This document shows positions 38,685-63,400 of a stretch of 64,000 bases of DNA, piece by piece. Source of the DNA: Chiloscyllium plagiosum (Eukaryota); the NCBI RefSeq assembly GCF_004010195.1, contig NC_057718.1, positions 73,270,533 to 73,334,532 on the forward strand. The letters run 5' to 3'. The translations under genes were made by a program, and so were the position numbers. Positions within the stretch are counted from its first letter, which is position 1. Each line of letters begins with the position of its first letter. The notes below the pieces were generated by a model, which did not search any database, was not told where the DNA came from, and saw nothing but the letters and a program-made list of their open reading frames with translations.

Positions 38685-39085
38685 AACCTGGTGTTCATTT
38701 TTGCTGTAAAAGTGAATTAGATGATCCTTTGTCATCCTTTGCCTTCTGTCCGCCAATCTCTACCACTGGTTACATTTCTCTGCCTCTAATAATGGACATA
38801 TTTTAGACAAATTAGTTATTCGTGCTTTTCCTAAATCCTAAGTATGGCTTCCACTGCTGTCCTTATTTTTTGGACCATTCTTAAAACTATTCATAATCAA
38901 AATATTGAAGATGCTAGAAATTTGAACTAAAGTAATCAATAGGTCAAGATGATATCTGTGGATTTTTTGACATTAAATTTGAAATCTTAAAACTGTACTT
39001 TTCATGTTTTTTTAACACAACTATTTCTATTTCTCTGCCGTTACCCGAATTTTAGTAATCTCCAAAAATTAGTGCAGTGATTATC

Positions 39086-39490
39086 GAACATAGAACAATA
39101 AAGCACAGAACAGGCCACGATGTTGTGCCGAACATTTGTCCTAGCTTAAGCACCCATCCATGTACCTATCCAATTGCCGCTTAAAGGTCGCCAATGATTC
39201 TGACTCTGCCACTCCCACAGGCAGCGCATTCCATGCCCCCACCACTCTCTGGGTAAAGAACCTACCCCTGATATCCCCCCTATACCTTCCACCCTTCACC
39301 TTAAATTTATGTCCCCTTGTAACACACTGTTGTACCCGGGGAAAAAGTTTCTGACTGTCTACTCTATCTATTCCTCTGATCATCTTATAAACCTCTAACA
39401 AGTCACCCCTCATCTTTCGCCGTTCCAATGAGAAAAGGCCTAGCACTCTCAACCTATCCTCGTATGACCTATTCTCCATTCCAGGCAACA
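39086..39490 (-). mobile_element. CR1 3' end
   Basis: RGDLLEVYKMIRG...FFTQRVVGAWNALP. Confidence 0.9.
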
Positions 39491-39682
39491 GAATAGTAAT
39501 ACATGTTACTAGAATAGTAATTCAGGAGCAAAATGAGGCTCTATTCACCTGCAGGAACCTGGACAACATTCAGGTTTGGACTGTTGAGTAGCAAGCAACA
39601 TTTATGCCACAAAAGTGCTAAGTAATGACGATTATCAGCATTAGAGAATCTATAACCTTTTCTTGATATTCAATGTCATGAC

Positions 39683-39782
39683 TGTAGTAATCAGAATGAG
39701 ATCAACCAGATGGACATCAGCGAATGTGTTCCCTGATTGGGGCTGTTAACCTGGTCCAATCAGAGACACCTTTTGAGAGAAA
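39683..39782 (+). mobile_element. Probable 5' part of an LTR (Gypsy-type), cut off by the Tx1 array
   Basis: Starts abruptly with TGTAGT inside an old LINE RT remnant. Carries opposed CCAAT boxes CTGATTGG...CCAATCAG. Confidence 0.5.
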
Positions 39783-41076
39783 TGCTTGGAATTTGAATAA
39801 AGATTCGTGCACTTTGCATCTTTCACTGTGTCTCACACCTGCACACACACACCATGGGTGCTGGGGAGAAAATATGCACTACCGCACTTAGGTGGTAGTG
39901 TGGGGTTAAAGGGGAAAAAAAAGGGGAGTGTCACTAAAAAAGAAAAAAGAAAAAAAAATAAAAAAAATAAAAAAAATAAACAGGAGATTAAAGAAAAAAA
40001 AAACAGGAGTGTTCACTGGCCACCCGGGTGTTTTCCTATCTTCCTGGTGGTGGAATTTGAATAAAGATTCGTGCACTTTGTGTCTTTCACTGTGTCTCAC
40101 ACCTGCAAAAAAAAAGAAAAGAAAAGAAAAAAAAAATGAACAGGAGTGCTTGGAATTTGAATAAAGATTCGTGCACTTTGCATCTTTCACTGTGTCTCAC
40201 ACCTGCACACACACACCATGGGCGCTGGGGAAAAATAAGCACTACCGCACTTAGGTGGTAGTGTGGGGGTTAAAGAAAAAAAAAATGAACAGGAGTGCTT
40301 GGAATTTGAATAAAGATTCGTGCACTTTGTGTCTTTCACTGTGTCTCACACCTGCAAAAAAAAAGAAAAGAAAAGAAAAAAAAAATGAACAGGAGTGCTT
40401 GGAATTTGAATAAAGATTCGTGCACTTTGTGTCTTTCACTGTGTCTCACACCTGCACACACACACCATGGGTGCTGGGGAAGAAAAATAAGCACTACCGC
40501 ACTTAGGTGGAAAAAAAAAGAGAAATGTTTGGCCACCCGGGTGTTTTCCTATCTTTCTGGTGGTGAAATTGAATAAAGATTCGTGCACTTTGTGTCTTTC
40601 ACAGTGTCTCACACCTGCAAAAAAAAAGAAAAGAAAAGAAAACAAAATGAACAGGAGTGCTTGGAATTTGAATAAAGATTCGTGCACTTTGTGTCTTTCA
40701 CTGTGTCTCACACCTGCACACACACACACCATGGGTGCTGGGGAAAAAAAAAATAAAAGAGGACATCAAATAAGCGCTACCGCAGTTAGGCGGTAGTATG
40801 GGGGTTAAAAAAAAAACTGGAGCGTCAATTCTATTTTGATAAAAAAAACCCAGAAAATTTACATTAGAGCCCGGGTGTCCTTGGAGAAGGAGCACACGGT
40901 GTCCACCAACACCCTGGAGTTGTTCAGGGAGAGGTGGGCGCCGCAGGGAGTGGAGTGCATTATTTCTCCCTCCAACTCTAAATAAAAAAAAATGAACAGG
41001 AGTGCTATCACACAGCATTGCCCTTTGATGTGAAGGGCACTGCTTGTCACTGGCCACTCGGGTGTTGGCCTATCTT
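39783..41076 (+). repeat. Head-to-tail array of short Tx1 3'-end copies with A tails and TGAACAGGAGTGCT linkers
   Basis: About 10 units share segments of the Tx1 3'UTR/ORF2 end. Exact linkers at 40137, 40286, 40386, 40648 and 40993. Confidence 0.9.
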
Positions 41077-42128
41077 AAGAGTTGGAGCAGTGTGAGTGAG
41101 TGTGCACACGGGCAAGGACTCTCCTCCTTGAAGGGGACTGTCCCTGGATTAGCTGCCCTGCATCGAGAGAGAGAGAGAGAGGAAGGAAAGAAGAAGAAGA
41201 GGAGGAGGCAGAAGCAGAAGGAGGTGAGAGATTTTGAGTCTGGGGCCTATGTTTGGACCTGCAGCCTGGGCCTCACCCAGGTCAAGGGAGTGTTGCTGCT
41301 GACCTGGGGCCCACTCCCACTGCTGGTTTTTGGGACCCCGCCTGGACCTGCCTCAGCTGTTGCTGCTTGGGGCCTGCCTCACTGCTGCTGCCTGAGACTT
41401 GCCTTGGGGACCCTCCCAGGACCTCCACCACTGCTGCTGTTATTAGAGGCCCACCTCCACTGCTGCTGCCTGGGACTCAATTTTGGGGCTGACTGGGACT
41501 TGCCTTGGGGACCCTCCCCAACAGGTCTGCCCCACCAACTGCTGCAACCAAGGGCCTGCCGAGGACTTGCCAGAGGCCTGCCTCCACTGCTGCTGTTGTC
41601 TGAGGCCTGCCTCCAACAATGCTGCCTGGGACTCGCCTTGGGGCCCCTCCCAACAACCTCAACCACTACTGCTGCCTGGGACTTGCCTTGGGGACCCTCC
41701 CCAACAGGTCTGCCCCCACCGCTGCGACCGAGGGTCTGCTTAGGACTTGCCTGAGGCCTGCGTCCACCGCCACTGCCTGGGACTCGCCTTGTCCCCTCCC
41801 CAGGACCTCCAACACTGCCACTGCTGGAGGCCCACCTCCACTGCTACTGCTGCCTGGGACTCAATTTTGAGGCTGCCTGGGACTTGCCTTGGGGACCCTC
41901 CCCAACAGGTCTGCCCCCACCGCTGCGACCAAGGGCCTACCTGGGACTCGCCCGAGGCCTGCCTCCACCGCTGCTGTTGCCTGAGGCCTGCCTCCACCAC
42001 TACTGCTGCCTGAGACTCGCCTTGGGTGACTGGCCTTGGGCCCCTCCCCACAACCTCCACCACTGCTGCTGCCAGAGGCCCACCTCCACCGCTGCTGCCT
42101 GAGGTCTACAAATATCCAGCAGCAGAGT

Positions 42129-44353
42129 ATGGCGAGCCCGAAGGTCACGGGGCCTAGCCGCACCTACGCCGGGGTAGCCGCTGCTTTAGGCTCGGCTATC
42201 CCAACCCTGGCCGCAACCGCAACCCCCTTCAGGCACCTGACTAAATGCCTGGGGGTAAAGGCCTATCCCCACCCCAACATGTCCATCGAGGCCTGCAGCA
42301 AGGCCATGGCTAGTGTGGTCGGCCCACTGGCCATCGTCGCTGCGGCCCGGATGTACGGGAAGGCCGTCTTCTTCCTTAAGACCGAGCAGGCGGTCCACCT
42401 GGCCGTGGAGAGGGGGCTCACTGTGGGCGGGACACATTTGCCCGTCGACCCTCTGGAGGTTACGGCCCAGAGGGTCGTGATCTCCAACGTCCCACCCTTC
42501 ATTGCCAGCGAGCTCCTTCTACCCCACCTCACCACCTTTGGGGAGATCCGGTCAGGGGTCCAACCGCTCCTGCTCGGTCTTAAGGACCCCGCCCTCCGAC
42601 ACATCTACTCCTTCCGATGCCAGGTGTTCATTTGCCTGGCCCGGGAGGAGGTCACCGAGGGCTCATTCACACTCCTCCATGAGGGCGTGGCCTACCACGC
42701 CTTGCAGACAGCATGCGGTGCCACCTGTGCCCCGAGGTGGGGCACATTAGAAAAAACTGCCCCACCCAGAAGGCTGCCCAGCCCACGCCAACAGCTGATG
42801 GTGGTGCCGCCGCACCCACTCCCCCTCCCCCGAAGTCAACACCACAAGCCCCGGCACCGGAGAGTAAGCCGGATGCATCCGATGCTCCAGCCTCAGGCAG
42901 GGAGGGGGTGATCGTCCGGCCGGCCAGAAGGCGCTCAAGAAGACGTGACATGTCAGGCCTGCCCATGGGGAGACCACCCTATCCCCTTCCCCGACACCCA
43001 GCCCACGCCCTGCCCCACCTTGGCACGATAATGCCCCTGCGGCCGTGCCAGCATTGCCCCGGCGCGGGAACCCTGACCCCCAAACCCCCACCTGATCCTG
43101 GTCTCACTGACCCCACATCCACTCCCCACTCCGATAGAGAAACCCCTGGGGCTTCAACACCTGCCCCTGGCGCTGTAACACCTGGTCTGGGGGCCCCCGA
43201 GCCCGAGCCCTGGCACTAACCTGGGGGGAAACCACCACTACCCCACCTCCTGCAGCGACCGTGCCTCTGGGCCCTGGAGAGGGAATTGGGCCTCTTTCCC
43301 GCCCGCCGTCACCTGATAAACCAGGGGCGGGGCAAGAAGTGACACAGCTGACCCTCCCCACGCCTTCTGTCTTCCCCCAGCCAATCGTATTCCGGGAAAA
43401 GCTGGGGGGGGACCTCGGGCCCCATGACCACCAAGGCGGGCGGGGAGGGGAAGGCCCATAAATTCCCCCCTGTCTCTCTGGGGAAGAGGCACCGGCCCGT
43501 GGAGGGGAGAGACACTCCAGCAGCGCTGCCCCTCTCCAGGGGATGAGCCAACGGTGCCTCTTGACTGTCCTGCACTGCGGCCCGACCTACCCAAACCCAC
43601 AGTGGCTACAGCAGGGCCTCCTGCTGCCTCAACTCCTCCGGCCCCTTTGGAGGACTTTAACAACCACGAGGGTCGTGGTGCGGGTGACGATGGAGGACCC
43701 TCTGCTGGGTCGTCGAGCGGCGGAGGGGAGGAAGGTGTTATCCTCGCTCCTCCCTCCCAGACTGTTTTTCCGGGGGCCTTGGCCCTGGGGGAGAACCTTT
43801 TCCCCGAGGAGCCGGGCGTCTCGTTGTTGGGAGAGGAGCGGGGCCCCGGGCCTCTGCCGCCCGATGACCCGAACTCGGGGCGTTCCGGGAAGGGGTGCGC
43901 TGTGGAAGGTACTGCCGGTGACCCTGGCGGTGGGGTCGCCGGGGGTTTGAGGCCAGTTGGCTGTGCCGGACCAGCCCCCATCCTCTCGGTGGGGGAGGGG
44001 TCGGTGACAGAGGGCGACCTCCCAGAGGAGGGTTCGGGATCGGTGGCGGACACCGGGGACGACGCGGACTCTGTCTGCAGTGACGTTTGAGTCCCAGGTG
44101 CCCCCCCCACCGATCTCCCCCTCATCCCCTCGAGGAACTCTGGGAATTTGTCGAGGAAACACGGAGTTGCCAGGATAGAGCCCAACTGGCACTCGACTGC
44201 TGGAGCTCATTCGAGAGAGTTTATAGGTTGGCCCACGCTGCTTGCCAGGCGCCTGGGCTCGACGTGAATGAGCGAAAGCGAGTCAGGAACTTCCTGGGTG
44301 CGCTCCTGGTGAGGGCAAGGGACTTCTGTGCCCCTCCCTCATCCTCCCAGTAA
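42129..44353 (+). pseudogene. Tx1 ORF1 (RRM-like region, CCHC zinc knuckle, long Pro-rich linker), frameshifted
   Basis: MASPKVTG...AAARMYGKAVFFLKTEQAV...VVISNVPPFI...CHLCPEVGHIRKNC, spread over several frames. C-terminal helical block LEELWEFVEETR...RVRNFLGALL ends at 44353. Confidence 0.8.
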
Positions 44354-44408
44354 ATGTGTATATATAGGTTTTTAACTGTACTGGTGGTGGTTGCACAACG
44401 CTTCCGAC

Positions 44409-47400
44409 ATGGAGCCAACTATAGCCAGCCTCAACATCAACGGCAGCAGGGAGTCACAGCGCAGATTCCAGACCCACTCGGTCCTTCGGGACGGGAGGTA
44501 TGCGGTGTGCTTCCTGCAAGAAACCCACACTACCCCGGAGACGAAGCCACCTGGCTCCTGGTGTGGCGAGTGGGGGTGGGGTCTACATGAGTCACCTCAC
44601 CCGCAGATCTGGCGGGGTGGCTATTTTGTTGGCCCCGCATTTTCAGCCGGAGATCTTGGGGGTCAGGGAGCCCATGCCAGGCCATTTGCTTCACCCGATG
44701 GTTCGGCTGGGGGGCGCGGTGCTTCACTTGGTGAACGTCTACGCTCCCCTGGCCGGGCCAAGGCAAGCAAGCTTCTTTGAAGCAGTGTCCACTCATTACG
44801 CCTCCATCGACGAGAACCAGTGCGTCGTCCTCGGGGGAGATTTTAACTGCGTCCTCGAGGGCAGGGACCACAGCGGTGCCTGCACTGGTTGGGCATCGGG
44901 GAGGAGATTGGGGGACTTGGTCAAGTCCTTCGACCTGGTGGACGTCTGGCGAAATCTCCATCCCGACTCCATCGCCTTCACCTTCGTGAAGCCTGGGGTC
45001 GGAGCATCTAGAATCGACCGCCTGTACGTTTCACGGGCGCACGCCTCCTGTTTTCTGAAGGCCTCCACGCGGCATGTGTCGTGCACGGACCATCACCTGG
45101 TGTGGGCGGAACCTCTTCCGTTCGGCGCCAGGCTCGGCTCCGCATACTGGCACTTTAACAACCTGCTGCTGGAGGACGAGCGGTTCCGGGACTCGTTTCG
45201 TCGCTTCTGGGCCGGCTGGAGAAGGAAGCGGGGAAGCTTCCCCTCCCTGAGGCTATGGTGGGACGTGGGCAAGGCTCACGTCCGCGTCTTCTGTCAGGAG
45301 TACGCGAGGGGGTCGACGAAGAGGCAGACATCCAGGAGCGGGGAGTTGGAGAGGGAGATGCTCGACCTGGAGTCACGCCTTGGTCAGCCCGACGTGGACC
45401 CGGCCCTGCGCGGGGCNNNNNNNNTATATAGGTTTTTAACTGTACTGGTGGTGGTTGCACAACGCTTCCGACATGGAGCCAACTATAGCCAGCCTCAACA
45501 TCAACGGCAGCAGGGAGTCACAGCGCAGATTCCAGACCCACTCGGTCCTTCGGGACGGGAGGTATGCGGTGTGCTTCCTGCAAGAAACCCACACTACCCC
45601 GGAGACGAAGCCACCTGGCTCCTGGTGTGGCGAGTGGGGGTGGGGTCTACATGAGTCACCTCACCCGCAGATCTGGCGGGGTGGCTATTTTGTTGGCCCC
45701 GCATTTTCAGCCGGAGATCTTGGGGGTCAGGGAGCCCATGCCAGGCCATTTGCTTCACCCGATGGTTCGGCTGGGGGGCGCGGTGCTTCACTTGGTGAAC
45801 GTCTACGCTCCCCTGGCCGGGCCAAGGCAAGCAAGCTTCTTTGAAGCAGTGTCCACTCATTACGCCTCCATCGACGAGAACCAGTGCGTCGTCCTCGGGG
45901 GAGATTTTAACTGCGTCCTCGAGGGCAGGGACCACAGCGGTGCCTGCACTGGTTGGGCATCGGGGAGGAGATTGGGGGACTTGGTCAAGTCCTTCGACCT
46001 GGTGGACGTCTGGCGAAATCTCCATCCCGACTCCATCGCCTTCACCTTCGTGAAGCCTGGGGTCGGAGCATCTAGAATCGACCGCCTGTACGTTTCACGG
46101 GCGCACGCCTCCTGTTTTCTGAAGGCCTCCACGCGGCATGTGTCGTGCACGGACCATCACCTGGTGTGGGCGGAACCTCTTCCGTTCGGCGCCAGGCTCG
46201 GCTCCGCATACTGGCACTTTAACAACCTGCTGCTGGAGGACGAGTGGTTCCGGGACTCGTTTCGTCGTTTCTGGGCCGGCTGGAGAAGGAAGCGGGGAAG
46301 CTTCCCCTCCCTGAGGCTATGGTGGGACGTGGGCAAGGCTCACGTCCGTGTCTACTGTCAGGAGTACGCGAGGGGGTCGACGAAGAGGCAGACATCCAGG
46401 AGCGGGGAGTTGGAGAGGGAGATGCTCGACCTGGAGTCACGCCTTGGTCAGCCCGACGTGGACCCGGCCCTGCGCGGGGCATGCGAAGAGAAGAAACCCG
46501 CGCTCCAGGACCTGCAGCTCGTCGGGACTCGGGGCGCGTACATGAGGTCGCGGATCCAGCTCCTCCAGGACCTGGACCGCGGCTCCCCCTTCTTCTACTC
46601 GCTGGAAAAAAGGCGTGGCACCCGTCAGCAGCTGGCCAACAAAGGGTCCCTCGTTTCGGATCCGGAGGGCATCAGGGCCCACGTCCGAAACTATTACACG
46701 TCTCTGTTCTCTCCGGATCCGTCCAGCGAGGATGCTCGCAGTGTTCTGTGGGAGGACCTGCCACAGCTCGGCCCGGAGGACGCCGGAAGGCTCGACGCTC
46801 CCGTCACCTTAGAGGAGCTGACCGGCGCCCTCGACCGGCTCTCGAGGGGCAAAACCCCAGGGCTGGATGGGCTGACTGTGGAGTTCATCAGGGCATTCTG
46901 GGATGTCCTGGGGAGCGATTACGCACAGGTCCTGGGGGAGTGTCTAAATGCCGGAGAGCTGCCCCTTTCTTGGTGCAGGGCGGTCATTGTCCTTCTGCCA
47001 AAGAAGGGGGACCTTCGTTCCCTAAAGAACTGGGGTCCGGTCTCCCTCCTCAGCATGGACTACAAAATCTTCGCCAGGGTGTTGTCTTCTTGCCTGGCCT
47101 CCGTGCTGGCCCACATGATTCACCCGGACCAGTCCTACACGGTCCCGGGCCGGAGGATACACGATAACGTCCACCTGGTCCGGGACCTGATCCATTTCTG
47201 TCGACGGGCTGGTCTGCCGAGCGCCTTCCTGTCTCTCGACCAGGAGAAGGCGTTCGACAGGGTCGATCACGAGTACCTGCTCGGGACTTTGCGGGCATTT
47301 GGGTTCATGAGCAGTTCGTCGCCTGGATCCGACTTTTGTACGCTGCCGCAGAGTGTCTGGTTAAAGTTAACAGGTCCCTGACGGCGCCCCTTCGCTTCGG

Positions 47401-49334
47401 GAGAGGAGTGCGTCAAGGCTGCCCCCTGTCCGGCCAGCTGTAATCCCTGTGCGTGGAGCCTTTACTGCGCCTCTTGCGGAGACGGTTGTCGGGGCTGGTT
47501 CTGTGCAGCATGGGCACGGGGGTGGTCCTCTCGGCCTGCGCCGACGACGTGCTCCTCACCTTTCGCTGACCTGGGGAGGATGCACGAGTGCCAGGCCGTG
47601 TACTCGGCAGCGTCTTCTGCCAGGATTAGCTGGGCCAAATGTTCTGGACTACTGGTCAGTCCATGGCAGGTGGACTCTCTGCCAGAGGAGTTACAGGGGT
47701 TCAGCTGGAGTACCACCCATCTCCTCTACCTGGGGGTCTACCTCAGCCCGGCTGAGGAATCCTGGCCGGCCAACTGGCAGGAGCTGGAGGCCAAAGTCTC
47801 GGCTCGCCTAGCACTGCTCCGAGTGCTATCTTACAGGAGTCGAGTGCTGGTCATAAACCAGCTGGTGGCCGCCATGCTGTGGTACCAGCTGGTCACTTTG
47901 GTCCCTCCTCCTGGCTTTGTCGCTGACATCAAGAGAACGTTGGTCGACTTCTTCTGGGACAAAAGGATGCGTTGGGTTGCTGTGCAGGTTCTGAGTCTCC
48001 CTATTGCGGAGGGCGGTCAGTCGCTGGTGTGCGTCCGCACCCAGGTCACGACGTTCCACCTTCAGACCTTTATGTCGAGCCTCCTCCTAGGTGGTGCGCC
48101 CTGGCGACATATTTTTTCCGCCAGGTGCGTAACCTCGACTACGACACGCAGCTCCTGTTCATCGACCGTGACGGTTTGGAGGTCGCCCTCAAGACGCTGC
48201 CTGTCTTTTACCAGGATCTGATCACTGTCTGGAACATGGTCGAATCGCGTCGCGCCTACCCTCCGCCTGGAGTAGTGGCTGTCGTCAGGGAGTCGTTGCT
48301 CAGGAATCCACACCTCCGTACTCGCGGGTTCGAGTGGCTGTCGAAGGGGAGGGCCGTGGCGGCGAGGGTGACCAGGGTCGGGGACGTGCTGGGTGCCGGG
48401 GGCCTGGGCTGGACGCTGCCGCAGGACATAGCGAGCAGGGCAGCGGTAGAGGTCCGGTACATGGCCACCGCCATCCGACGCCTTAAAACGGCGGTGCTCG
48501 GACCCTACGTAGTGCACCAGTTGGAGGACGCTCAGGTGTGCGGTGGGAAGACGTCCACTCTCATCCCAACCCGTATGGAATTTCACATAGGCTCCCGCGG
48601 GAAGTACGGGACCTTGGGGCCAATGTCCCACAACCTGAGCCGTCTCCGGAATTTTAATTTTGTCCCTTTTTTTTAAGGATGTAAAAAGGCGGGCCGTGTA
48701 TCGACTGCTGCTGCACACCGTCCACCTCTTTTCTCCCTCATCCACCGTCCGGACACGCCTTGGCGTGCCCATTTGCTACTGGGTGGTGGGGATCCCCAGT
48801 GGAGTGCTCTCTACGCGGGAGTCCTCCCCCTTTCTCTCGGGGATCTGGGGTGGAGGGTGCTGCACGCAGCAGTCCCCTGCAACCGCAGATTGCGGTGGTT
48901 CACGGACTCCCAGCCCAACTGCTTGTTCTGTGGCGCTGTGGAGTCCGTGGACCACGTATATATTGGGTGTGGGGCGTTTGCACTCCCTTTTTGATTTTCT
49001 GAAAAACCTTCTCCTCTGTTTTTGGCTGCACTTCAGTCCCACGCTCCTGATCTTTGGGCACCCGGTACGGAGGAAGGAGGGCAGGTCTGAAGACCTCCTC
49101 GTGGGTCTGCTCCTGGGCCTGGCCAAACTGGCCATCAACAGGTCCAGGCAGCGGGCCGTGGAGGGGGTCGTTAAGGCCGACTGCCTGCCCCTCTTCCGCG
49201 GTTACGTTAGAGCCCGGGTGTCCTTGGAGAAGGAGCACGCGGCGTCGACCAACACCCTGGAGTTGTTCAGGGAGAGGTGGGCGCCGCAGGGAGTGGAGTG
49301 CATCATTTCTCCCTCCAACTCTATTTTGATTTAG
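44409..49334 (+). pseudogene. Tx1 ORF2 (APE endonuclease + reverse transcriptase), frameshifted
   Basis: APE motifs IASLNING, FLQETH, LVNVYAP, GGDFN, SRIDRLY, TDH. RT motifs GKTPGLDGL, PVSLLSMDYKIF, LDQEKAFDRVDH, GVRQGCPLS, (C)ADD. C-terminal CLFCGAVESVDH. Confidence 0.9.
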
Positions 49335-49957
49335 TCCCTACCCTCCCCTTCACTGTTTTGATCACACAGCACTGCCCCTTGATGTGAAGGGCAGTGTTTG
49401 TCACTGGCCACCCGGGTGTTTGCCTATTGTGAGTGTATGTNNNNNNNNNNNNNNNNNNNNNNNNNNNNNNNNNNNNNNNNNNNNNNNNNNNNNNNNNNNN
49501 NNNNNNNNNNNNNNNNNNNNNNNNNNNNNNNNNNNNNNNNNNNNNNNNNNNNNNNNNNNNNNNNNNNNNNNNNNNNNNNNNNNNNNNNNNNNNNNNNNNN
49601 NNNNNNNNNNNNNNNNNNNNNNNNNNNNNNNNNNNNNNNNNNNNNNNNNNNNNNNNNNNNNNNNNNNNNNNNNNNNNNNNNNNNNNNNNNNNNNNNNNNN
49701 NNNNNNNNNNNNNNNNNNNNNNNNNNNNNNNNNNNNNNNNNNNNNNNNNNNNNNNNNNNNNNNNNNNNNNNNNNNNNNNNNNNNNNNNNNNNNNNNNNNN
49801 NNNNNNNNNNNNNNNNNNNNNNNNNNNNNNNNNNNNNNNNNNNNNNNNNNNNNNNNNNNNNNNNNNNNNNNNNNNNNNNNNNNNNNNNNNNNNNNNNNNN
49901 NNNNNNNNNNNNNNNNNNNNNNNNNNNNNNNNNNNNNNNNNNNNNNNNNNNNNNNNN

Positions 49958-50515
49958 CATGCTCCTGATCTTTGGGCACCCGGTACGGAGGAAGGAGGGC
50001 AGGTCTGAAGATCTCCTCGTGGTTCTGCTCCTGGGCCTGGCCAAACTGGCCATCAACAGGTCCAGGCAGCGGGCCGTGGAGGGGGTCGTTAGGGCCGACT
50101 GCCTGCCCCTCTTCCGCGGTTACGTTAGAGCCCGGGTGGCCTTGGGGAGGGAGCACGCGGTGTCCACCAACACCCTGGAGTTGTTCAGGGAGAGGTGGGC
50201 GCCGCAGGGAGTGGAGTGCATTGTTTCCCCCTCCAACTCTATTTTGATTTAGTCCCTACCCTCCCCTTCACTGTTTGATCGGACAGCACTGCCCTTTGAT
50301 GTGAAGGGCAGTGTTTGTCACTGGCCACCCGGGTGCTTTCCTATCTTCCTGGTGGTGGAAATTGAATAAAGATTTGTGCACTTTGTGTCTTTCACTGTGT
50401 CTCACACCTGCCCACACACACACAACATGGGTGCTGGGGGAAAAAATAAGCACTACCGCACTTAAGTGGTAGTGTGGGGGTTATATATTTTTAAAAAAAG
50501 AAGAAAAAGAAAAAA
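49958..50515 (+). mobile_element. Tx1 3' fragment (end of ORF2, full 3'UTR and A tail)
   Basis: Near-identical to 49040-49427 with several substitutions, and continues to an A-rich tail. The left edge is a gap. Confidence 0.8.
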
Positions 50516-51130
50516 TGAACAGGAGTGCTTTTTCCCCCTCCAACGCTATTTTGATTTAGTCCCTCCCCTCCCCTTCACTGTTTGATCACACAGCATTGCC
50601 TTTTGATGTGAAGGGCACTGCTTGTCACTGGCCACTCGGGTGTTTTCCTATCTTCCTGGTGGTGGAAATTGAATAAAGATTTGTGCACTTTGTGTCTTTC
50701 ACTGTGTCTCACACCTGCCCACACACACACAACATGGGTGCTGGGGGAAAAAATAAGCACTACCGCACTTAAGTGGTAGTGTGGGGGTTATATATTTTTA
50801 AAAAAAGAAGAAAAAGAAAAAATGAACAGGAGTGCTTTTTCCCCCTCCAACGCTATTTTGATTTAGTCCCTCCCCTCCCCTTCACTGTTTGATCACACAG
50901 CATTGCCTTTTGATGTGAAGGGCACTGCTTGTCACTGGCCACTCGGGTGTTTTCCTATCTTCCTGGTGGTGGAAATTGATTAAAGATTTGTACACTTTGT
51001 GTCTCACACCTGCACACACGCACCATGGGTGCTGGGGAAAAATGAGCACTACCGCAGTTAGGGGGTTAATTAAAAAAAAACAGATGATAAGGGCACTGGT
51101 TGTCACTGGCCACTCAGGTGTTTTCCTTTT
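50225..51130 (+). repeat. Tandem 307-bp repeat of the Tx1 3'UTR + A tail + linker (about 2.8 units)
   Basis: Linkers at 50516 and 50823 (period 307). The third unit is diverged and runs into the 5' end of the second Tx1 copy. Confidence 0.9.
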
Positions 51131-52405
51131 GAGAGCTGGATCAGTGTAAGTGTGAGTGTGAGTGCGCACGTGCAAGGACTCTCCTCCTTGAAGGGGACTG
51201 TCCCTGGACCAGCTGCCCCACATCCAGAGAGCTGAAGGAAGGAAGAGGAGGAAGATGAAGAAGGAGGTGAGAGCTTTGAGTCTGGGGCCTACTTTTGGAG
51301 CTGCAGCCTGGGCCTCACCCAGGTCAAGGGAGTGTTGCTGCTGACCTGGGGCCCACTCCCACTGCTGCTGCCTGGGACTTGCCTTGGGGCCCCTCCCAGA
51401 ACCTCCATCACTGCCGCTGCTGTTAGAGGCCCACCTCCACCGCTGCTGCCTGGGACTTGCCATGGGGACCCTCCCCAACAGGTCTGCCCCCACTGCTGCG
51501 ACCAAGGGCCTGCCTCCAACGCTGAGGCCTGCCTTCACCATCGCTGCCTGGGACTCAATTTTGGGGCTGTCTGGACCCTCCCCAACAAGTCTGCCCCCAC
51601 CGCTGCGACCAAGGGCCTACCTGGGACTTGCCCAAGGCCTGCCTCCAGCGCTGCTGTTGCCTGAGGCCTGCCTCCACCACTACTGCTGCCTGAGACTCGC
51701 CTTGGGTGACTGGCCTTGGGCCCCTCCCCACAACCTCCACCACTGCTGCTGCCAGAGGCCCACCTCCACCGCTGCTGCCTGAGGCCTATCAACATCCAGC
51801 AGCAGAGTATGGCGAGCCCGAAGGTCGCGGGGCCCAGCCGCACCTACGCCGAGGTAGCCGCTGCCTTAGGCTCGGCTGCTCCGGCCGGCCAGAAAGGCGC
51901 TCAGGAAGACGCAACATGTCCTGCAGTAAGGCCATGGCTAGTGTGTGGTCGGCCCACTGTCCATCGTCGCTGTGGCCCGGATGTATGGGAAGGCCGCCTT
52001 TTTCCTTAAGACCGAGCAGGCGGTCTACCTGGCCGTGGAGAGGGGGCTCACTGTGGGCGGGACACATTTACCCGTCGACCCTCTGGAGGTTACGGCCCAG
52101 AGGGTCGTGATCTCCAACGTCCCGCCCTTCATTGCCAGTGAGCTCCTTCTCCCCCATCTCACCACCTTGGGGCAGATCCGGTCGGGTATCCAACCACTCC
52201 TGCTCAGTCTTAAGGACCCCGCCCTCCGACACGTGTACTCCTTCCGACGTCAGGTGTTCATTTGCCTGGCCCGGGAGGAGGTCACCGAGGGCTCTTTCAC
52301 ACTCCTCCACGAGGGCGCGGCCTACCGTGTCTCCTTGTTTACGGACGGCGTGCGGTGCCACCTGTGCCGAGAGGTGGGGCACATTAGAAAAAACTGTCCC
52401 ACCCC
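51131..52405 (+). mobile_element. Second Tx1 copy: 5'UTR and ORF1 N-terminal part, 3'-truncated
   Basis: Aligns by eye with 41077-42765; MASPKVAGPSRTYA...CHLCREVGHIRKNCPT, then an abrupt end. Confidence 0.85.
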
Positions 52406-52425
52406 CGGTGGAAAGCACAATCCTA

Positions 52426-52484
52426 CAGCCTACAGCTTCACTCATACCAAACTGTCACAATTCCTGTTTGATTACAGGATCACC
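52426..52484 (+). pseudogene. Ty3/Gypsy integrase core remnant
   Basis: Translates, with one frameshift, to QPTASL-TKLSQFLFDYRIT, resembling the L..FL..YR.TPH motif of Gypsy integrases. Very short. Confidence 0.5.
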
Positions 52485-52880
52485 TATAGGGTAAATTATG
52501 GCAAATGGAATTTGATCTGGATGAATGTGAGGTGATGCACTTGGGCAGGACAAATAAGGCAAAGGAATACATGAATGGTAGGACACTGGGAAGCACTGAG
52601 GATCCAAGGGACCTTGGTGTCCATGTCCAACATTCCCTTAAGGTAGTGTGGGATAAATAGATAAACTAGTTAAGAAGGCAAATGGGATACTTGCCTTAAT
52701 TAGCTAAGGCATAGAATTTAAGAGCAGGGGAGGGTATGTTGGAACTATGTGAAATATTGGTTAGGTCATAGGTAGAGTATTGTGTGCAGTTCTGGAATCC
52801 ACAATGTAGAAGGATGTGATTACACTGGAGAACATGCAGAAAAGATTTATGAGGATTTGCCTGAGCTGGAAAGTTTTATT
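52485..52880 (+). mobile_element. Old CR1 RT fragment
   Basis: WQMEF-CEVMHLG, DLGVHV and EYCVQFW motifs. Confidence 0.75.
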
Positions 52881-55662: not shown

Positions 55663-57984
55663 TGAGTTTTGAGAAGATTTGCAGCTCAGGTTTGCTCGCT
55701 GAGCTGGAAGGTTCATTTCCAGACGTTTCATCACCCTACTAGGTAACATCTTCAGTGGGCCTCAGGTGAAGCACTGTACATGGTTCCTGCTTTCTATTTA
55801 TATGTTTGGGTTTCTTTGGGTTGGTGATGTCATTTCCTGTGGTGATGCAATTTCCTGTTCTTTTTCTCAGGGGGTGTAGATGGGGTCTAACTCGGTGTGT
55901 TTTTTGATAGAGTTCCGGTTGGAATGCCATGCTTCTAGGAATTCTCGATGTGTGTGTCTCTGTTTGGCTTGTCCTAAGATGGATGTGTTGTCCCAGTCAA
56001 AGTGGTGTCCTTCCTCATCTGTAGGTAAGGATATGAGTGAGAGAGGGTCATGTCGTTTTGTGGCTAGTTGGTTTTCACGTATCCTGGTGCTAGTTTTCTG
56101 CCTGTTTGTCCAATGTAGTGTTTGTTACAGTTCTTGCATGGTATTCTGTAATGACATTAGTTTGGCTTGTTGTCTGTATAGGGTCTTTCAAGTTCATTAG
56201 CTGCTGTTTTAGTGTGTTGGTGCATTTGTGGGCTACCATGATGCCACATTGAGTAGTCTGGCAGTCATTTCCGAGATGTCTTTGATGTAGGGGAGAGTGG
56301 TTGGGGTTTCTGGACGCGTTTTATCTGCTTGTTTGGGCTTGTTGCTGAAAAATCGGCGGACAGTGTTCATTGGGTACCCATTTGTTTTGAATACACGGTA
56401 TGGGTTATTTTCCTCTGCTCTGCGTAGTTCCTCTGTGCTGCAGTGTGTGTTGACTTGTTGAAATAATGTTCTGATGCAGCTTCATTTATGGATGTTTGGA
56501 TGATTGCTTCTGTAGTTCAATATTTGGTCTGTATGTGTTGTTAATCTGTAGATGCTGGTTTGAAGTTGCCCATTGGCTGTTCGCTCTAATGTGACATCTT
56601 GGAATGACAGTTTGCTGTTGTTTTCTTCCTCTTTAGTGAATTTTATGCCAGTAAGGACAATATTGATGGTCTTGAAGGTTTCCTCTAATTTGTTTCGTTT
56701 AGTGATGACAAAGGTGTCATTCGCATGGCAGACCCAAAGTTTGGGTTGGATAGTTGGCAGAGCTGTTTGTTCGAGTCTATGCATTACTGCCTCTGCTAAG
56801 AACTGCCTCTGATATCAGAGATCCCATGGGTGTTCTTTGGTTTGTCTATAGGCTTAGTTGTTGAAGGTGAAGTGTGTGGTAAGGCATAGGTCCAGTAGGT
56901 TGACGATACTGTCCTTGCTGATTAAGTTAGTGGTGTTTCGTGTATGTGTCTTTGGGTCTTCTAATAATGTAGTCAGTGTTTACCAGGCCAGGTTAATGTT
57001 GATTGATGTAAACAGGGTTGTTACATCAAAGGAGACCATTATTTAATCCTCTTCTGTTTTAGTGTCTTTGATGGTCTTCAGGAATTCTTGGGTGGAGTGG
57101 ATGGAGTGGCGTGAGTCTTCTACTAAGCATTTTAGTCTTTGGTGTAGCTCCTTGGCTAATCTGTAAGTTGGTGTTCCAGGTAGTAAGACTATGGGTCTGA
57201 GGGGGGCTCCAGGTTTGTGAATTTTGGGTAATTCTTAGAAGGATATTGTGTTGGATCTGTTTGGTTTCATTTTTTGGAAGTCAGTCTTATTTATTTCTCC
57301 AGATTTCTGAAGGTTTTTGAGTAAGGCTGTGATTCAGTTCTCTAGTTGTGGGGTTGGGTCTATCACCACTTGTAGGTAAGTGTTGGTATTTCAATGTAGT
57401 CTCTTCAATTTAGAATGACTGTCAAGCATCCTTTGTCTGCAGGTAGGATAACAATATTTTTATCTTTTTTTAGTCTTTCCAGTGCTTTCCTTTCTTGTGT
57501 GTTGAGTGTGTTTCCTTCCTTTTTTCTGCTTAATGTTGGTGCAACTACCTGTCTGATGGCTTGCTGGGTTTCTTCTGTGAGTTGATTGTCTTTTAGTGTT
57601 GTTTCTAATGCTGCTAAGAAATTTTTCTTGTCCGCATCCTGGCAGTTGTAATTTAATCCTCTTACTAAGATGGCTTTTTCAGCGTCTGTTAAGGGTCAGT
57701 CAGATAAGTTTTTTATCCATGCTTCTGTGTTGTCAGTGTTGTTACTTTGTGTAAGTTTGTCTAGTTTCTAGTTATTTACAAAATACTGTGCAAGAACTAT
57801 AACATCACAGGAAATGACATCACCACAAGAAATGACATCACCAACCCAAATAACCCCAAACATATAAATAGAAAGCAGGAATTTTCAGCATTGCTTTGCC
57901 TGAGGCCCACAGATGATGTTACCTAGTAGAGTGATGAAACATCGGGAAATGAAACTTTCAGCTCAGCGAGCAAACCTACATCCA
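55663..57984 (-). mobile_element. Penelope-like element, near full ORF (RT + GIY-YIG remnants), with inverted terminal copy
   Basis: SFDVTTLFTSI, IKFTKEEENNSKLSFQDV and YRSNHP motifs; terminal ~190 bp repeated in inverted orientation at about 57800-57980; possible TAAAATAA TSD; hammerhead at 55719-55758. Confidence 0.88.
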
Positions 57985-60469: not shown

Positions 60470-63400
60470 TCAGACCATAAGAAATAGGAACATGAGTAGG
60501 CCATGCAGTCATTCAAGCCTGTTCCACCATTCAATGAGATTGTAACTGATCCAATATTCCTCATCTCCACTCCCCTGCATTATCCCCATTACTTTTAATT
60601 CTCAACTGATCAAGGATTAATCTATCTCAGCCTTTAATGTGCACAGGGCCTTGTCCATCACAGTTTTCTGTGGAAAAGAGTTCTGATGACTGACAACCCT
60701 CTGAGAGAAGAAATTCTTCCTCATCTTAGACTTTTTGCATCCTTTTATTCTGAGACTATGCACCCTCACCTCTCCCCCAGCCCCACCACTGTCCTAGACT
60801 CATCCATGAGGGGAAACATCCTCTCAGCATTTACCCTGTCAAGTCCCTTAAGAATCCTATTTGTTTCAATGAGATGACTTCTTATTCTTTTAAACTCCTT
60901 TGCTCATAAGACTATCTCTCCACACTAAGGATCATCCTCATGAACCTTCCCTGATCAGCATCCAGTGAAATGATATTTTTCCTTGAATACAGGGACCAAA
61001 ACCGATCATAGTACCCAAGAATTAGTCTCATCAGCACCTTGTGCAGTGCAGTAAAACTCCCCACTCTTATACTCCAAACTCTTCCTGAATATCTGCTGCA
61101 CCTGTGTGATAGCTTTCTGTGTCTTATATACCAGTCCCCCAAATCCCTTTGTGTTGTGGCTTTCTCAATTTAAGTAATGTCCTGTCCTTTTGTTCTCCCT
61201 TCCAAAATGAGCAACTTCACACTTGCCTGCGTTATACTCCACTTGTCAATTTGTTTGCCCACTTAATTGACATCTGTCTCTCACTGTAAACTGTTAGTAT
61301 ACTTCTTGCAACTTGCCTTTCAACCTTTTTTTGTGTTGTCTGCAAATTTGGCAACAGTACATTAGCTTCCTTCCTCCAAGACATTTATATTTATTGTAAG
61401 CAGTTGTGGCCCCAGCACTTTGCCCTCCTAGTTTATTTTCTCTGTCTTTATTATCTTTTTCACAGTACATTCGCTTCCTTCCTCCAAGACATTTATATTT
61501 ATTGTAAGCAGTTGTGGCCCCCAGCACTTTGCCCTCCTAGTTTATTTTCTCTGTCTTTATTATCTTTTTCCTCCCTTGCTAGATTTGGAATTTGCCTTCA
61601 TGGCTCTCATTGACGAATGCCTCCTTATCTCCTTTATCTTTCAATTTAATACTATCCTTAACTTCCTTGGTTAACCATGGTTGATTTATCCCTCTAGAAC
61701 CCCAATAGTTACAGGTTGCCTACCTGAAAAAGAATGCCTGATCTCTATTTGCTGTTTCCTGCCCATTAGCTGATTCTCTATCCATACCAATATTCGGCCT
61801 CTAATATCATGTCTCATATCTTATAGCTTAACCTTTTGTGAAGTACCTTGTTGAACATCTTCTGGAAGTCCCTGTATAACACATCTACAAGTGCTCCACT
61901 ATCCACTCTGATTACAAATTCCTCAAATATCGAATAAGTTAGTCAGATACAATTTCCCTTTCATGAAGCATGCTGATTCTGTTTGATTAGATTATGATTT
62001 TCCAAACGTTCTGCTATTACTTCCTTAATAATTGATTCCAATACTTTTCCAAAAATAGATGTTAGGCTAATCAGCCAAAACCATTTTTTTGTCTCCCTCC
62101 CTTTCCAGTGCTCTGGTACTTCCCCAGAATTCAAGGATTTTTGGAATATTACAATCAATGCATTTACCATCCCCGAGGCTACCTTTTTTAGGAACCAAAG
62201 ATGCAAGTAATCAAGGGCAAGGGACTTTTCTGGCTTTAGCACCAATAATTTGTCTCATATTACTTATGTCATGGTTGTGATGGCATTGATTCATCCTCTA
62301 CATTCTTTAGTATTAATGGGATGTTCGAAGTAGGTATTCCATCATGGGGATTAATGCAAAATATCTGTTTAACTCCTCTGCCATTTCCTTGTTGCGCATA
62401 ACTGTCTCATCCAACTCAATTTCTGGGGACTGATTTTCACTTTGACCTTTCCTTCCTTACATATTTGAAGAAGCTCTTTTATGTCAGTTTTTATATTCCT
62501 CACTGGTTATCCCTCCTACTTTGTTTTCTCTGCCACTATTAACTGTTTCCTGCTTTGCTGGATGCTCAACTTGTCCTCGTCTTCATGGCTCTCATTGACT
62601 TTTGCCTCCTTATATCCTGTATCTTTCAATTTAATGCTATCCTTAACTTCCTTGGTTAGCCATGGTTGATTTACCCTTCTCTCAGGAACCTTTCTCCTTA
62701 TTGGGATTTCTTTTTGCTGAGAATCATGGATTATCTCCTTAAATATCTGCCACTGCTGGCTTAGTATCATTCCTGCGAATCTATCTGCCTGTTCACTTTA
62801 GCCAGCTGTATTCTAATTTCACTGTAATTCCCTTTATTCACATTAAACACAATTGTTTCTGACCCGTGTTTCTCACTCTCAAAATGAATGTTAAATTCTA
62901 TCATGTTATGATAGTTACTTCCGAAGAGATGTTTTACTGAGGTAATTTATTAAAGTACATCATCACATTACCAAATCCAAGGTAGCATACCTTGGCTCCA
63001 TGACATATTGGACTCAGAAACGATCACTAATGTACTCTATGAATTTGTGACCGCAGCTATTCTTTCTAACTTGTTAACCCAAATCAACTTAAAGATTAAA
63101 GTCACCCATATTATTACTCTATTCTTTTACATTCAACTGTTATTTGTTGACTTGTAGCCTTTCATACAGAGTGGCTACTGCCTGGGGGCCTATACACTAC
63201 CCCCACCATTTTCTTTCCCTACATTATCTGAACGTACAATATCTATTGCAACTGTTCTCATTTCATCTATTGTTAAGAGTGCTATCCCACCAACGTTTCT
63301 ATCCCTCCTGTCTTTCTGAAAGATCACATTTCCCTGAATGTTACATTTCTAGTTTTTATCTCCTTCTTAGCATCTTTCTGTGGTAGCTATGAGATCACAT

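What the first reader, a model, noticed from the sequence alone, without database searches (positions are those of the whole stretch)
39683..52484. Tx1 cluster sits inside a Gypsy-type LTR element: possible LTR-targeting LINE
Seen: left of the array is a TG-starting segment with paired CCAAT boxes, which stops about 20 nt after the second box, where a TATA region would be expected. A linker variant reads ATAAACAGGAG. Right of the cluster is a short Gypsy integrase remnant (TKLSQFLFDYRIT). Established: Xenopus Tx1L/Tx2L insert specifically into another transposon (Tx1D/Tx2D). Inference: this family targets the promoter region of an LTR retrotransposon, using it as a multicopy safe harbour and possibly borrowing its promoter.
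Basis: partly seen in the sequence, partly recalled or inferred. Interest (0 to 1): 0.7.

Follow-up and report, generated by a model that had tools for sequence, protein, structure and literature searches.

The report
Tx1 LINE stacked on LTR TATA
A jumping gene closely related to the frog element Tx1 has landed repeatedly at the TATA box of another repeat that is likely a retrotransposon's terminal repeat; related crocodilian elements already show this habit, but here insertion likely went on after the TATA box had mutated, which makes it testable what picks the spot.

Summary
The left half of the finding holds. The segment starting TG at 39683 is a repeat with thousands of copies. In most reads it continues through a TATA box into the word AACAGGAG(TG), the same word that separates Tx1 3' ends in the array (8 exact copies, 0.18 expected). 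The linker is therefore best read as a target-site duplication. Contigs of two other species join the repeat to Tx1 tails at this site, at five entry points. Many array units are duplicates: four distinct 5' joins lie behind the eight linkers. The right half is weak. Tx1 copy B is cut at 52404 and abuts about 80 bp of a separate repeat; its integrase label is recalled, not confirmed by any search, and no right LTR arm or flanking duplication survives, so 'inside a Gypsy element' is plausible, not shown. Promoter borrowing and the share of Tx1 copies in this LTR were not tested. LTR-preferring Tx1 families are published for crocodilians (PMC4494074), and this scan noted the same system at many other loci of this and other genomes.

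The parts
39683..39784 (+). Left arm of a high-copy, LTR-like repeat: TG start, two CCAAT boxes, cut inside a decayed TATA box
39736..39740 (-). First CCAAT box (ATTGG on +)
39756..39760 (+). Second CCAAT box
39776..39784 (+). 9-bp word AGAGAAATG at the end of the arm, repeated at 40519-40527 directly behind an A tail; likely target-site duplication of one front insertion that lacks the AACAGGAG word
   Evidence: interpretation inferred
39785..41006 (+). Left array of about ten Tx1 3'-end fragments (15-125 nt) with A tails and linkers; partly duplicated as a 249-bp unit
40136..40149 (+). Example of the linker ATGAACAGGAGTGC (7 of the 8 exact AACAGGAGTG copies have this form: 40139, 40288, 40388, 40650, 40995, 50518, 50825)
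41007..41076 (+). 3'UTR-like piece that precedes the 5' head of Tx1 copy A
41077..49427 (+). Tx1 copy A: repetitive 5'UTR, ORF1 (from about 42129), ORF2 with APE, RT and zinc-binding region (about 44409-49333), broken by frameshifts and a stop; ends in the 3'UTR without tail
44361..46480 (+). Assembly overlap: 44361-45416 repeated at 45425-46480 (1,052 of 1,056 identical) across an 8-N gap
49958..51082 (+). Right array: end of copy C with full tail, then units D and E behind linkers; D looks like a C/E hybrid (307-bp tandem); 7-nt microhomology GGAGTGC at the D and E 5' joins
51083..52404 (+). Tx1 copy B: 3'UTR-like piece, 5' head, 5'UTR and ORF1 to the zinc knuckle, cut at 52404
52405..52487 (+). 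Remnant of a separate multicopy repeat encoding TKLSQFLFDYRIT, frameshifted near 52443; integrase-like by recall only
   Evidence: no database hit in 39, 44, 45, 46
52488..52870 (+). Remnant of a dispersed LINE-type repeat, 66-79% like other copies in the window; not the continuation of the left flank

Best explanation
A Tx1-clade LINE sits stacked at the TATA box of a high-copy repeat that is likely an LTR, and it likely got there by repeated target-primed reverse transcription in which its endonuclease is predicted to nick the T-rich bottom strand of the TATA box and favour the adjoining AACAGGAGTG word. Shown: the intact repeat contains the linker word right after its TATA box; the word follows A tails and precedes Tx1 5' breaks; the same join exists in two other species. 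Inferred: the A tail primes at the nick, a second cut some 5-16 nt away duplicates the word, and this renews the target so that new, mostly severely 5'-truncated copies pile up; some 5' ends are joined by microhomology. Unequal crossing-over or re-copying of the array then multiplied units, and a later deletion removed most of copy B, the right LTR arm and probably most of an internal region, leaving an 80-bp remnant.
For: Intact repeat continues through TATA into the linker word: 1,391 (X19) and 1,240 (X20) loose ends, 489 and 427 contigs in organisms B and C. 8 exact linkers vs 0.18 expected, each behind an A run, with 4 distinct 5' joins. 6 of 12 displayed joints (40 in all) run repeat arm > TATA-like stretch > Tx1 tail in B and C, at 5 entry points and with different arm sequences; rough chance expectation 0.05-0.13 such joins per genome (organism A depths, genome size of 3-6 Gb assumed). 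7 of 8 linkers begin with ATG in place of the TATA letters, matching the AAATG end of this locus's own arm, so the duplications were likely made here. ORF2 is 50% identical to Xenopus Tx1 ORF2 and groups with it at SH-aLRT 100; Tx1L endonuclease nicks its target almost exclusively in vitro (PMC1950540, passages).
Against: Units are not all independent: u1 and u3 share an allele seen in about 5% of reads, three units share one complex A tail, and D is a hybrid. Several linkers differ from the word (GAGAAATG, TAAAAGAGGACATC, CTGGAGCGTC, CCCAGAAAAT, CAGATGATAAG), and 2 of the 8 displayed arm-to-tail joints do not pass through it. One front insertion has a 9-bp duplication without the word, which a strict sequence code does not explain. 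The joints in B and C rest on single contigs with short sides (22-34 nt where listed). The share of Tx1 copies at this site was not measured. LTR and Gypsy identity are not shown. The endonuclease loop is 8 residues here against 11 in Tx1L, so Tx1L's specificity need not carry over.
Confidence: 0.6

Rival explanations
1. The site is chosen by promoter layout, not by the word: the element is tethered by a host factor on the CCAAT boxes or by the basal transcription machinery and inserts about 15-22 nt past the second box, as Dictyostelium TRE5-A inserts at a fixed distance from Pol III genes.
For: Seven linkers carry a mutated TATA box, so insertion likely continued after TATAAA was lost. One likely front insertion duplicated AGAGAAATG, 15 nt past the CCAAT box, with no AACAGGAG word at the front. 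Some arm-to-tail joints in B and C have decayed words. TRE5-A precedent: PMC5391098, abstract. The idea was taken from earlier scan notes, not devised here.
Against: Only one event here lacks the word; its position is 4 nt nearer the box than the others. AACAGGAGTG itself is intact in all 8 main linkers. The nearest characterised relative, Tx1L, is sequence-specific in vitro. No binding data.
Confidence: 0.2
2. The array was built mainly from read-through RNAs: transcripts that run past the A tail into the linker word (or whole arrays transcribed from the LTR promoter) are re-copied or template-jumped, so linkers are carried cargo and RNA-DNA pairing helps homing.
For: Five units start at the same base; linkers are mixed, as if from several loci; a five-unit block is flanked by the 9-bp duplication; both full-length heads are preceded by a 3'UTR piece. 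Co-transcription with the target is discussed for R2 and SINEU in PMC4494074 section 20.
Against: Most linkers match this locus's own arm. DNA-level duplication explains the shared starts equally well. No RNA data were examined.
Confidence: 0.13
3. One chance insertion into the repeat, followed by local tandem duplication and self-insertion; no preference for the LTR.
For: Much of the array is duplicated; the repeat has thousands of copies.
Against: Four distinct 5' joins behind the same word here, and the same site used at different repeat copies in two other species, against a chance expectation near 0.1.
Confidence: 0.07

Closest known systems
Tx1-8_Crp and Tx1-4_AMi, crocodilian Tx1 families of the Keno/Tx1-Mar group (Kojima 2015, PMC4494074; passages and sections 15, 16, 20 read; supplements not available)
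   Same: [quoted passage not shown]
   Different: The text I read gives no position within the LTR element, no TATA-box site and no stacking (the unseen supplementary figures may). [quoted passage not shown] Kinship to these families was not tested.
Tx1L of Xenopus laevis (YTX2, P0006; PMC1950540 passages)
   Same: 50% identical ORF2, same well-supported RT clade, inserts into another transposon.
   Different: Tx1L targets the DNA transposon Tx1D; its endonuclease hairpin loop has 11 residues, this copy 8.
TRE5-A of Dictyostelium (PMC5391098, abstract only)
   Same: Non-LTR element inserting at a set distance from a promoter; model for the tethering rival.
   Different: Pol III genes, another lineage; tethering is not shown here.
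HeT-A/TART telomeric arrays (PMC5537684, passages)
   Same: Head-to-tail arrays in which 3'UTR sequence precedes the next 5' end.
   Different: Telomere-specific, no target-site duplication; resemblance only.

Membership tests
Tx1 clade LINE | ORF2 with APE endonuclease followed by RT | tested here: met
   Pfam Exo_endo_phos, RVT_1, zf-RVT; colinear with Xenopus Tx1 ORF2 residues 1-1292 in pieces
Tx1 clade LINE | RT groups with Tx1L | tested here: met
   10-row clade with P0006, turtle proteins and a stingray protein, SH-aLRT 100; quick tree of 47 rows, window row has a long branch because part of it is out of frame
Tx1 clade LINE | ORF1 with zinc knuckle; A-rich tail | tested here: met
   zf-CCHC E 8e-4, just under the curated cut-off; tail goes into poly(A) in 1,670 reads
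Target-specific Tx1 (Kojima's criterion) | More than 20% of flanks are one kind of repeat | not testable with these tools
   No assembly held; reads are cut at the A tail
Tx1-Mar group / Tx1-8_Crp / Tx1-4_AMi | Clusters with Keno in the RT tree | not tested
   Those sequences were not among the 48 hits
Tx1-Mar group / Tx1-8_Crp / Tx1-4_AMi | U1- or U2-derived head (some families) | tested here: not met
   No snRNA match in 39500-52600; 4 sub-threshold unrelated hits
Tx1L family | Inserts into the DNA transposon Tx1D; 11-residue endonuclease loop | tested here: not met
   Target is a CCAAT/TATA repeat; loop of 8 residues
Gypsy-type LTR retrotransposon (host) | LTR begins with TG and carries a Pol II promoter | tested here: met
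   TG at the repeat edge, two CCAAT boxes, TATA box in the common form
Gypsy-type LTR retrotransposon (host) | Paired LTRs ending in CA with a 4-6 bp flanking duplication | tested here: not met
   No second copy or right arm in the window; no 5- or 6-bp duplication downstream, one distant 4-bp match at 62999 that is chance-level. A deletion could explain the absence.
Gypsy-type LTR retrotransposon (host) | Integrase of Gypsy type | tested here: inconclusive
   Separate multicopy repeat; no hit; resemblance recalled
Gypsy-type LTR retrotransposon (host) | Primer-binding site and polypurine tract | not testable with these tools
   The regions are missing from this locus

The most novel reading that the evidence does not exclude
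A vertebrate LINE that homes to a Pol II core promoter by position: it is tethered at CCAAT/TATA promoters of an LTR family, keeps inserting there after the TATA box and the target word are lost, and is transcribed from that promoter through its own stacked 3' ends, so the array feeds itself.
Probability: 0.18. Interest if true: 0.75.

Novelty: new variant of a known kind. Interest (0 to 1): 0.42.

Why it matters
It gives a precise, many-copy target for a vertebrate APE-type LINE, with natural target mutants. This locus alone holds a mutated TATA box that likely went on being used and one likely insertion without the target word. That makes an old question testable: whether the endonuclease, the RNA end or a host promoter factor chooses the site. 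The answer bears on how site-specific LINEs change targets and on their use as insertion tools. The basic habit (Tx1 in LTR elements) is already published.

Tried and rejected
No own genome is held. Motif scans for intact repeat copies or Tx1 tails found nothing in viral, metagenome or prokaryote genome contigs; a 17-letter motif gave 5 viral loci that match only the motif itself and were dropped as chance. Four searches for the integrase-like peptide gave nothing; it is probably too short. Sequence look-ups in earlier scan notes found no look-alikes. One search did not display loose ends at the Tx1 5' end and showed no piece bridging 52404/52405, so neither the head-LTR sharing nor that join was checked against reads. 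The Tx1 heads do not match the left arm (best 8 nt). Rejected: reading every unit as an independent insertion; reading 44361-46480 as a real duplication; an snRNA head. Literature: Tx1 + shark + non-LTR retrotransposon + 'inserted into' gave 0 papers; searches listed no paper on a TATA-box target, seen as listings only; subscription journals and Repbase reports are not in the library, and the supplements of PMC4494074 could not be read. A joint 39763>39787 in 7 reads of X19 and 0 of X20 is unexplained and not counted.

Full report
Setting. No assembly is held for this window. The host is probably a cartilaginous fish: the nearest protein in my tree is from a stingray, and the repeat content fits from recall. 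Sequencing runs of three coded organisms hold parts of 38700-41250 (A, 0.54-0.71 of words; B and C, 0.23-0.30).

Anatomy. From left to right: a decayed LINE-type flank; a segment starting TG at 39683 with CCAAT boxes at 39736 and 39756; an array of about ten short Tx1 3'-end fragments with A tails (39785-41006); near full-length copy A (to 49427), broken by frameshifts and a stop and containing an assembly overlap (1,052 of 1,056 identical across 8 N); a 517-N gap; tails C, D, E (49958-51082); copy B, which stops after the ORF1 zinc knuckle at 52404; about 80 bp encoding TKLSQFLFDYRIT; then another LINE-type remnant. ORF2 has APE, RT and zinc-binding matches, is 50% identical to Xenopus Tx1 ORF2 and 51-52% to turtle proteins, and falls in a 10-row clade with them at SH-aLRT 100 in a quick tree of 47 rows.

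Is the linker part of the repeat? Yes. With 39600-40012 as bait, depth rises from 0-3.6 left of the TG to about 2,400 over the boxes, roughly 3,400-7,400 copies if the genome is 3-6 Gb (size assumed). Behind the second box, 1,391 and 1,240 reads of two raw runs of organism A, and 489 and 427 contigs of B and C, go on through a TATA box about 21 nt past CCAAT and into AACAGGAG, in B and C as far as AACAGGAGTGT. In the window AACAGGAGTG occurs 8 times, all on + in the cluster, against 0.18 expected, each directly behind an A run. This is the pattern of a target-site duplication. The window's own arm is colinear with the common form up to 39784 and ends AAATG, a decayed TATA box. Seven of the eight linkers read ATG-AACAGGAGTGC, the same local change, so they were likely duplicated from this locus's own target after the box had mutated (inference).

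Is the site used elsewhere? Table 5c shows 12 of 40 joints. Eight link the arm to the Tx1 tail in organisms B and C. Six of these pass through about 30 letters that resemble the repeat's TATA region and enter the tail at five points (39827, 39834 twice, 39840, 39845, 39878), with differing arm sequences; two do not. The other four rows are tail-to-tail joins. Chance would give about 0.05-0.13 such joins per genome (from organism A depths; not computed for B and C). These are single contigs with short sides, so each is weak, but together they argue against a one-off. The fraction of Tx1 copies at this site could not be measured because reads are cut at the A tail.

How independent are the units? 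Less than it looks. Behind the eight exact linkers lie four distinct 5' joins. Units u1 and u3 share an allele present in about 5% of reads. Three units share one complex A tail, TRF finds 249- and 307-bp tandems, and D looks like a hybrid of C and E. D and E join through a 7-nt microhomology, GGAGTGC. Other linkers are degenerate or different. One is informative: AGAGAAATG at 40519-40527, behind an A tail, repeats 39776-39784. It reads as the duplication of an insertion at the front of the stack when the AACAGGAG word was no longer there, 15 nt past the CCAAT box. It is a single event.

The right edge. Tx1 reads leave the window sequence at 52404 (112 reads continue as ORF1), and 52419-52497 is covered by a different repeat at depth about 35 against about 230 for ORF1; other copies of it extend further upstream, and this copy is frameshifted near 52443. 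There is no right LTR arm, no second LTR and no flanking duplication, and the right flank does not continue the left flank's repeat. A deletion from ORF1 of B into an internal region of the same element is the simplest reading, but the remnant could be an unrelated neighbour. No displayed contig bridged the join.

Promoter borrowing. Not tested. The motifs GAGCTGGATCAGTGT and CAAGGACTCTCC are in the Tx1 heads, but I could not see the repeat beyond 30 letters past the arm. In this window both heads, and a third head-like start at 49428, follow a 3'UTR piece cut near GGGTGTT..CCT rather than a linker. Depth on 51103-51149 is about 12 against 66 just downstream, so that arrangement may be a minority form. 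This is unexplained.

Mechanism. Best supported (0.6): target-primed reverse transcription with an endonuclease preference for the TATA-AACAGGAGTG site, renewal of the target by duplication, stacking, later duplication and deletion. Tx1L endonuclease is sequence-specific in vitro (PMC1950540, passages), although the loop implicated there has 11 residues in Tx1L and the turtle proteins and 8 in this copy (family trait or lesion unknown). Rivals: tethering to promoter factors (0.2; precedent TRE5-A, PMC5391098 abstract), read-through RNA building the array (0.13), chance plus duplication (0.07).

What is known. Kojima 2015 (PMC4494074; passages, sections 15, 16, 20) reports that Tx1-8_Crp and Tx1-4_AMi insert preferentially into specific LTR retrotransposon groups and suggests transcription from flanking host transposons for SINEU-2. 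The text I read gives no site within the LTR; its supplements were not available. Searches listed no paper on a shark Tx1 or a TATA-box target, but the library lacks subscription journals and Repbase reports. Earlier notes of this scan describe the same system at many other loci of this genome and in other genomes; they are unchecked leads, and the tethering idea comes from them.

Verdict. Real and more than chance on the left side; enclosure by a Gypsy element unproven; a new variant of a known kind. Interest 0.42.

Noticed in passing
window 41007-41090, 49361-49440, 51083-51150: All three Tx1 5'-head starts follow a 3'UTR piece cut at nearly the same place, without tail or linker; could be a non-terminal repeat, a 5' transduction from a master copy in an array, or recombination between copies.
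   Followed up: partly
window 39876-39901, 40776-40797, 50450-50475: Hairpin just before the A tail (z -3.8, -2.5, -3.0) with a G-U to G-C change between variants; possibly the RT recognition signal.
   Followed up: partly
window 40754-40767: A second linker type, TAAAAGAGGACATC; a similar word lies in a joint of organism C, hinting at a second target repeat.
   Followed up: no
window 39600-39703: Contigs of organisms B and C run from the unique left flank 20 and 12 nt into the repeat arm (table 8; too short to count as bridging), so this LTR-like insertion may predate their split.
   Followed up: no
window 39785-41006: Fragments end in A tails at five different points of the Tx1 3' end, including two inside the end of ORF2 and one inside the hairpin; two inserts appear to be A tail only.
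   Followed up: partly
window 44361-46480: Assembly overlap across an 8-N gap that makes the endonuclease region look duplicated.
   Followed up: yes
window 41330-42110 and 51330-51790: Tx1 5'UTR is built of variable 25-100 bp pyrimidine/GC-rich repeats that differ in number between copies.
   Followed up: no
window 55690-57980: About 2.3-kb decayed RT-like element on the minus strand bounded by 171-nt inverted arms (I7); Penelope-like by recall.
   Followed up: no
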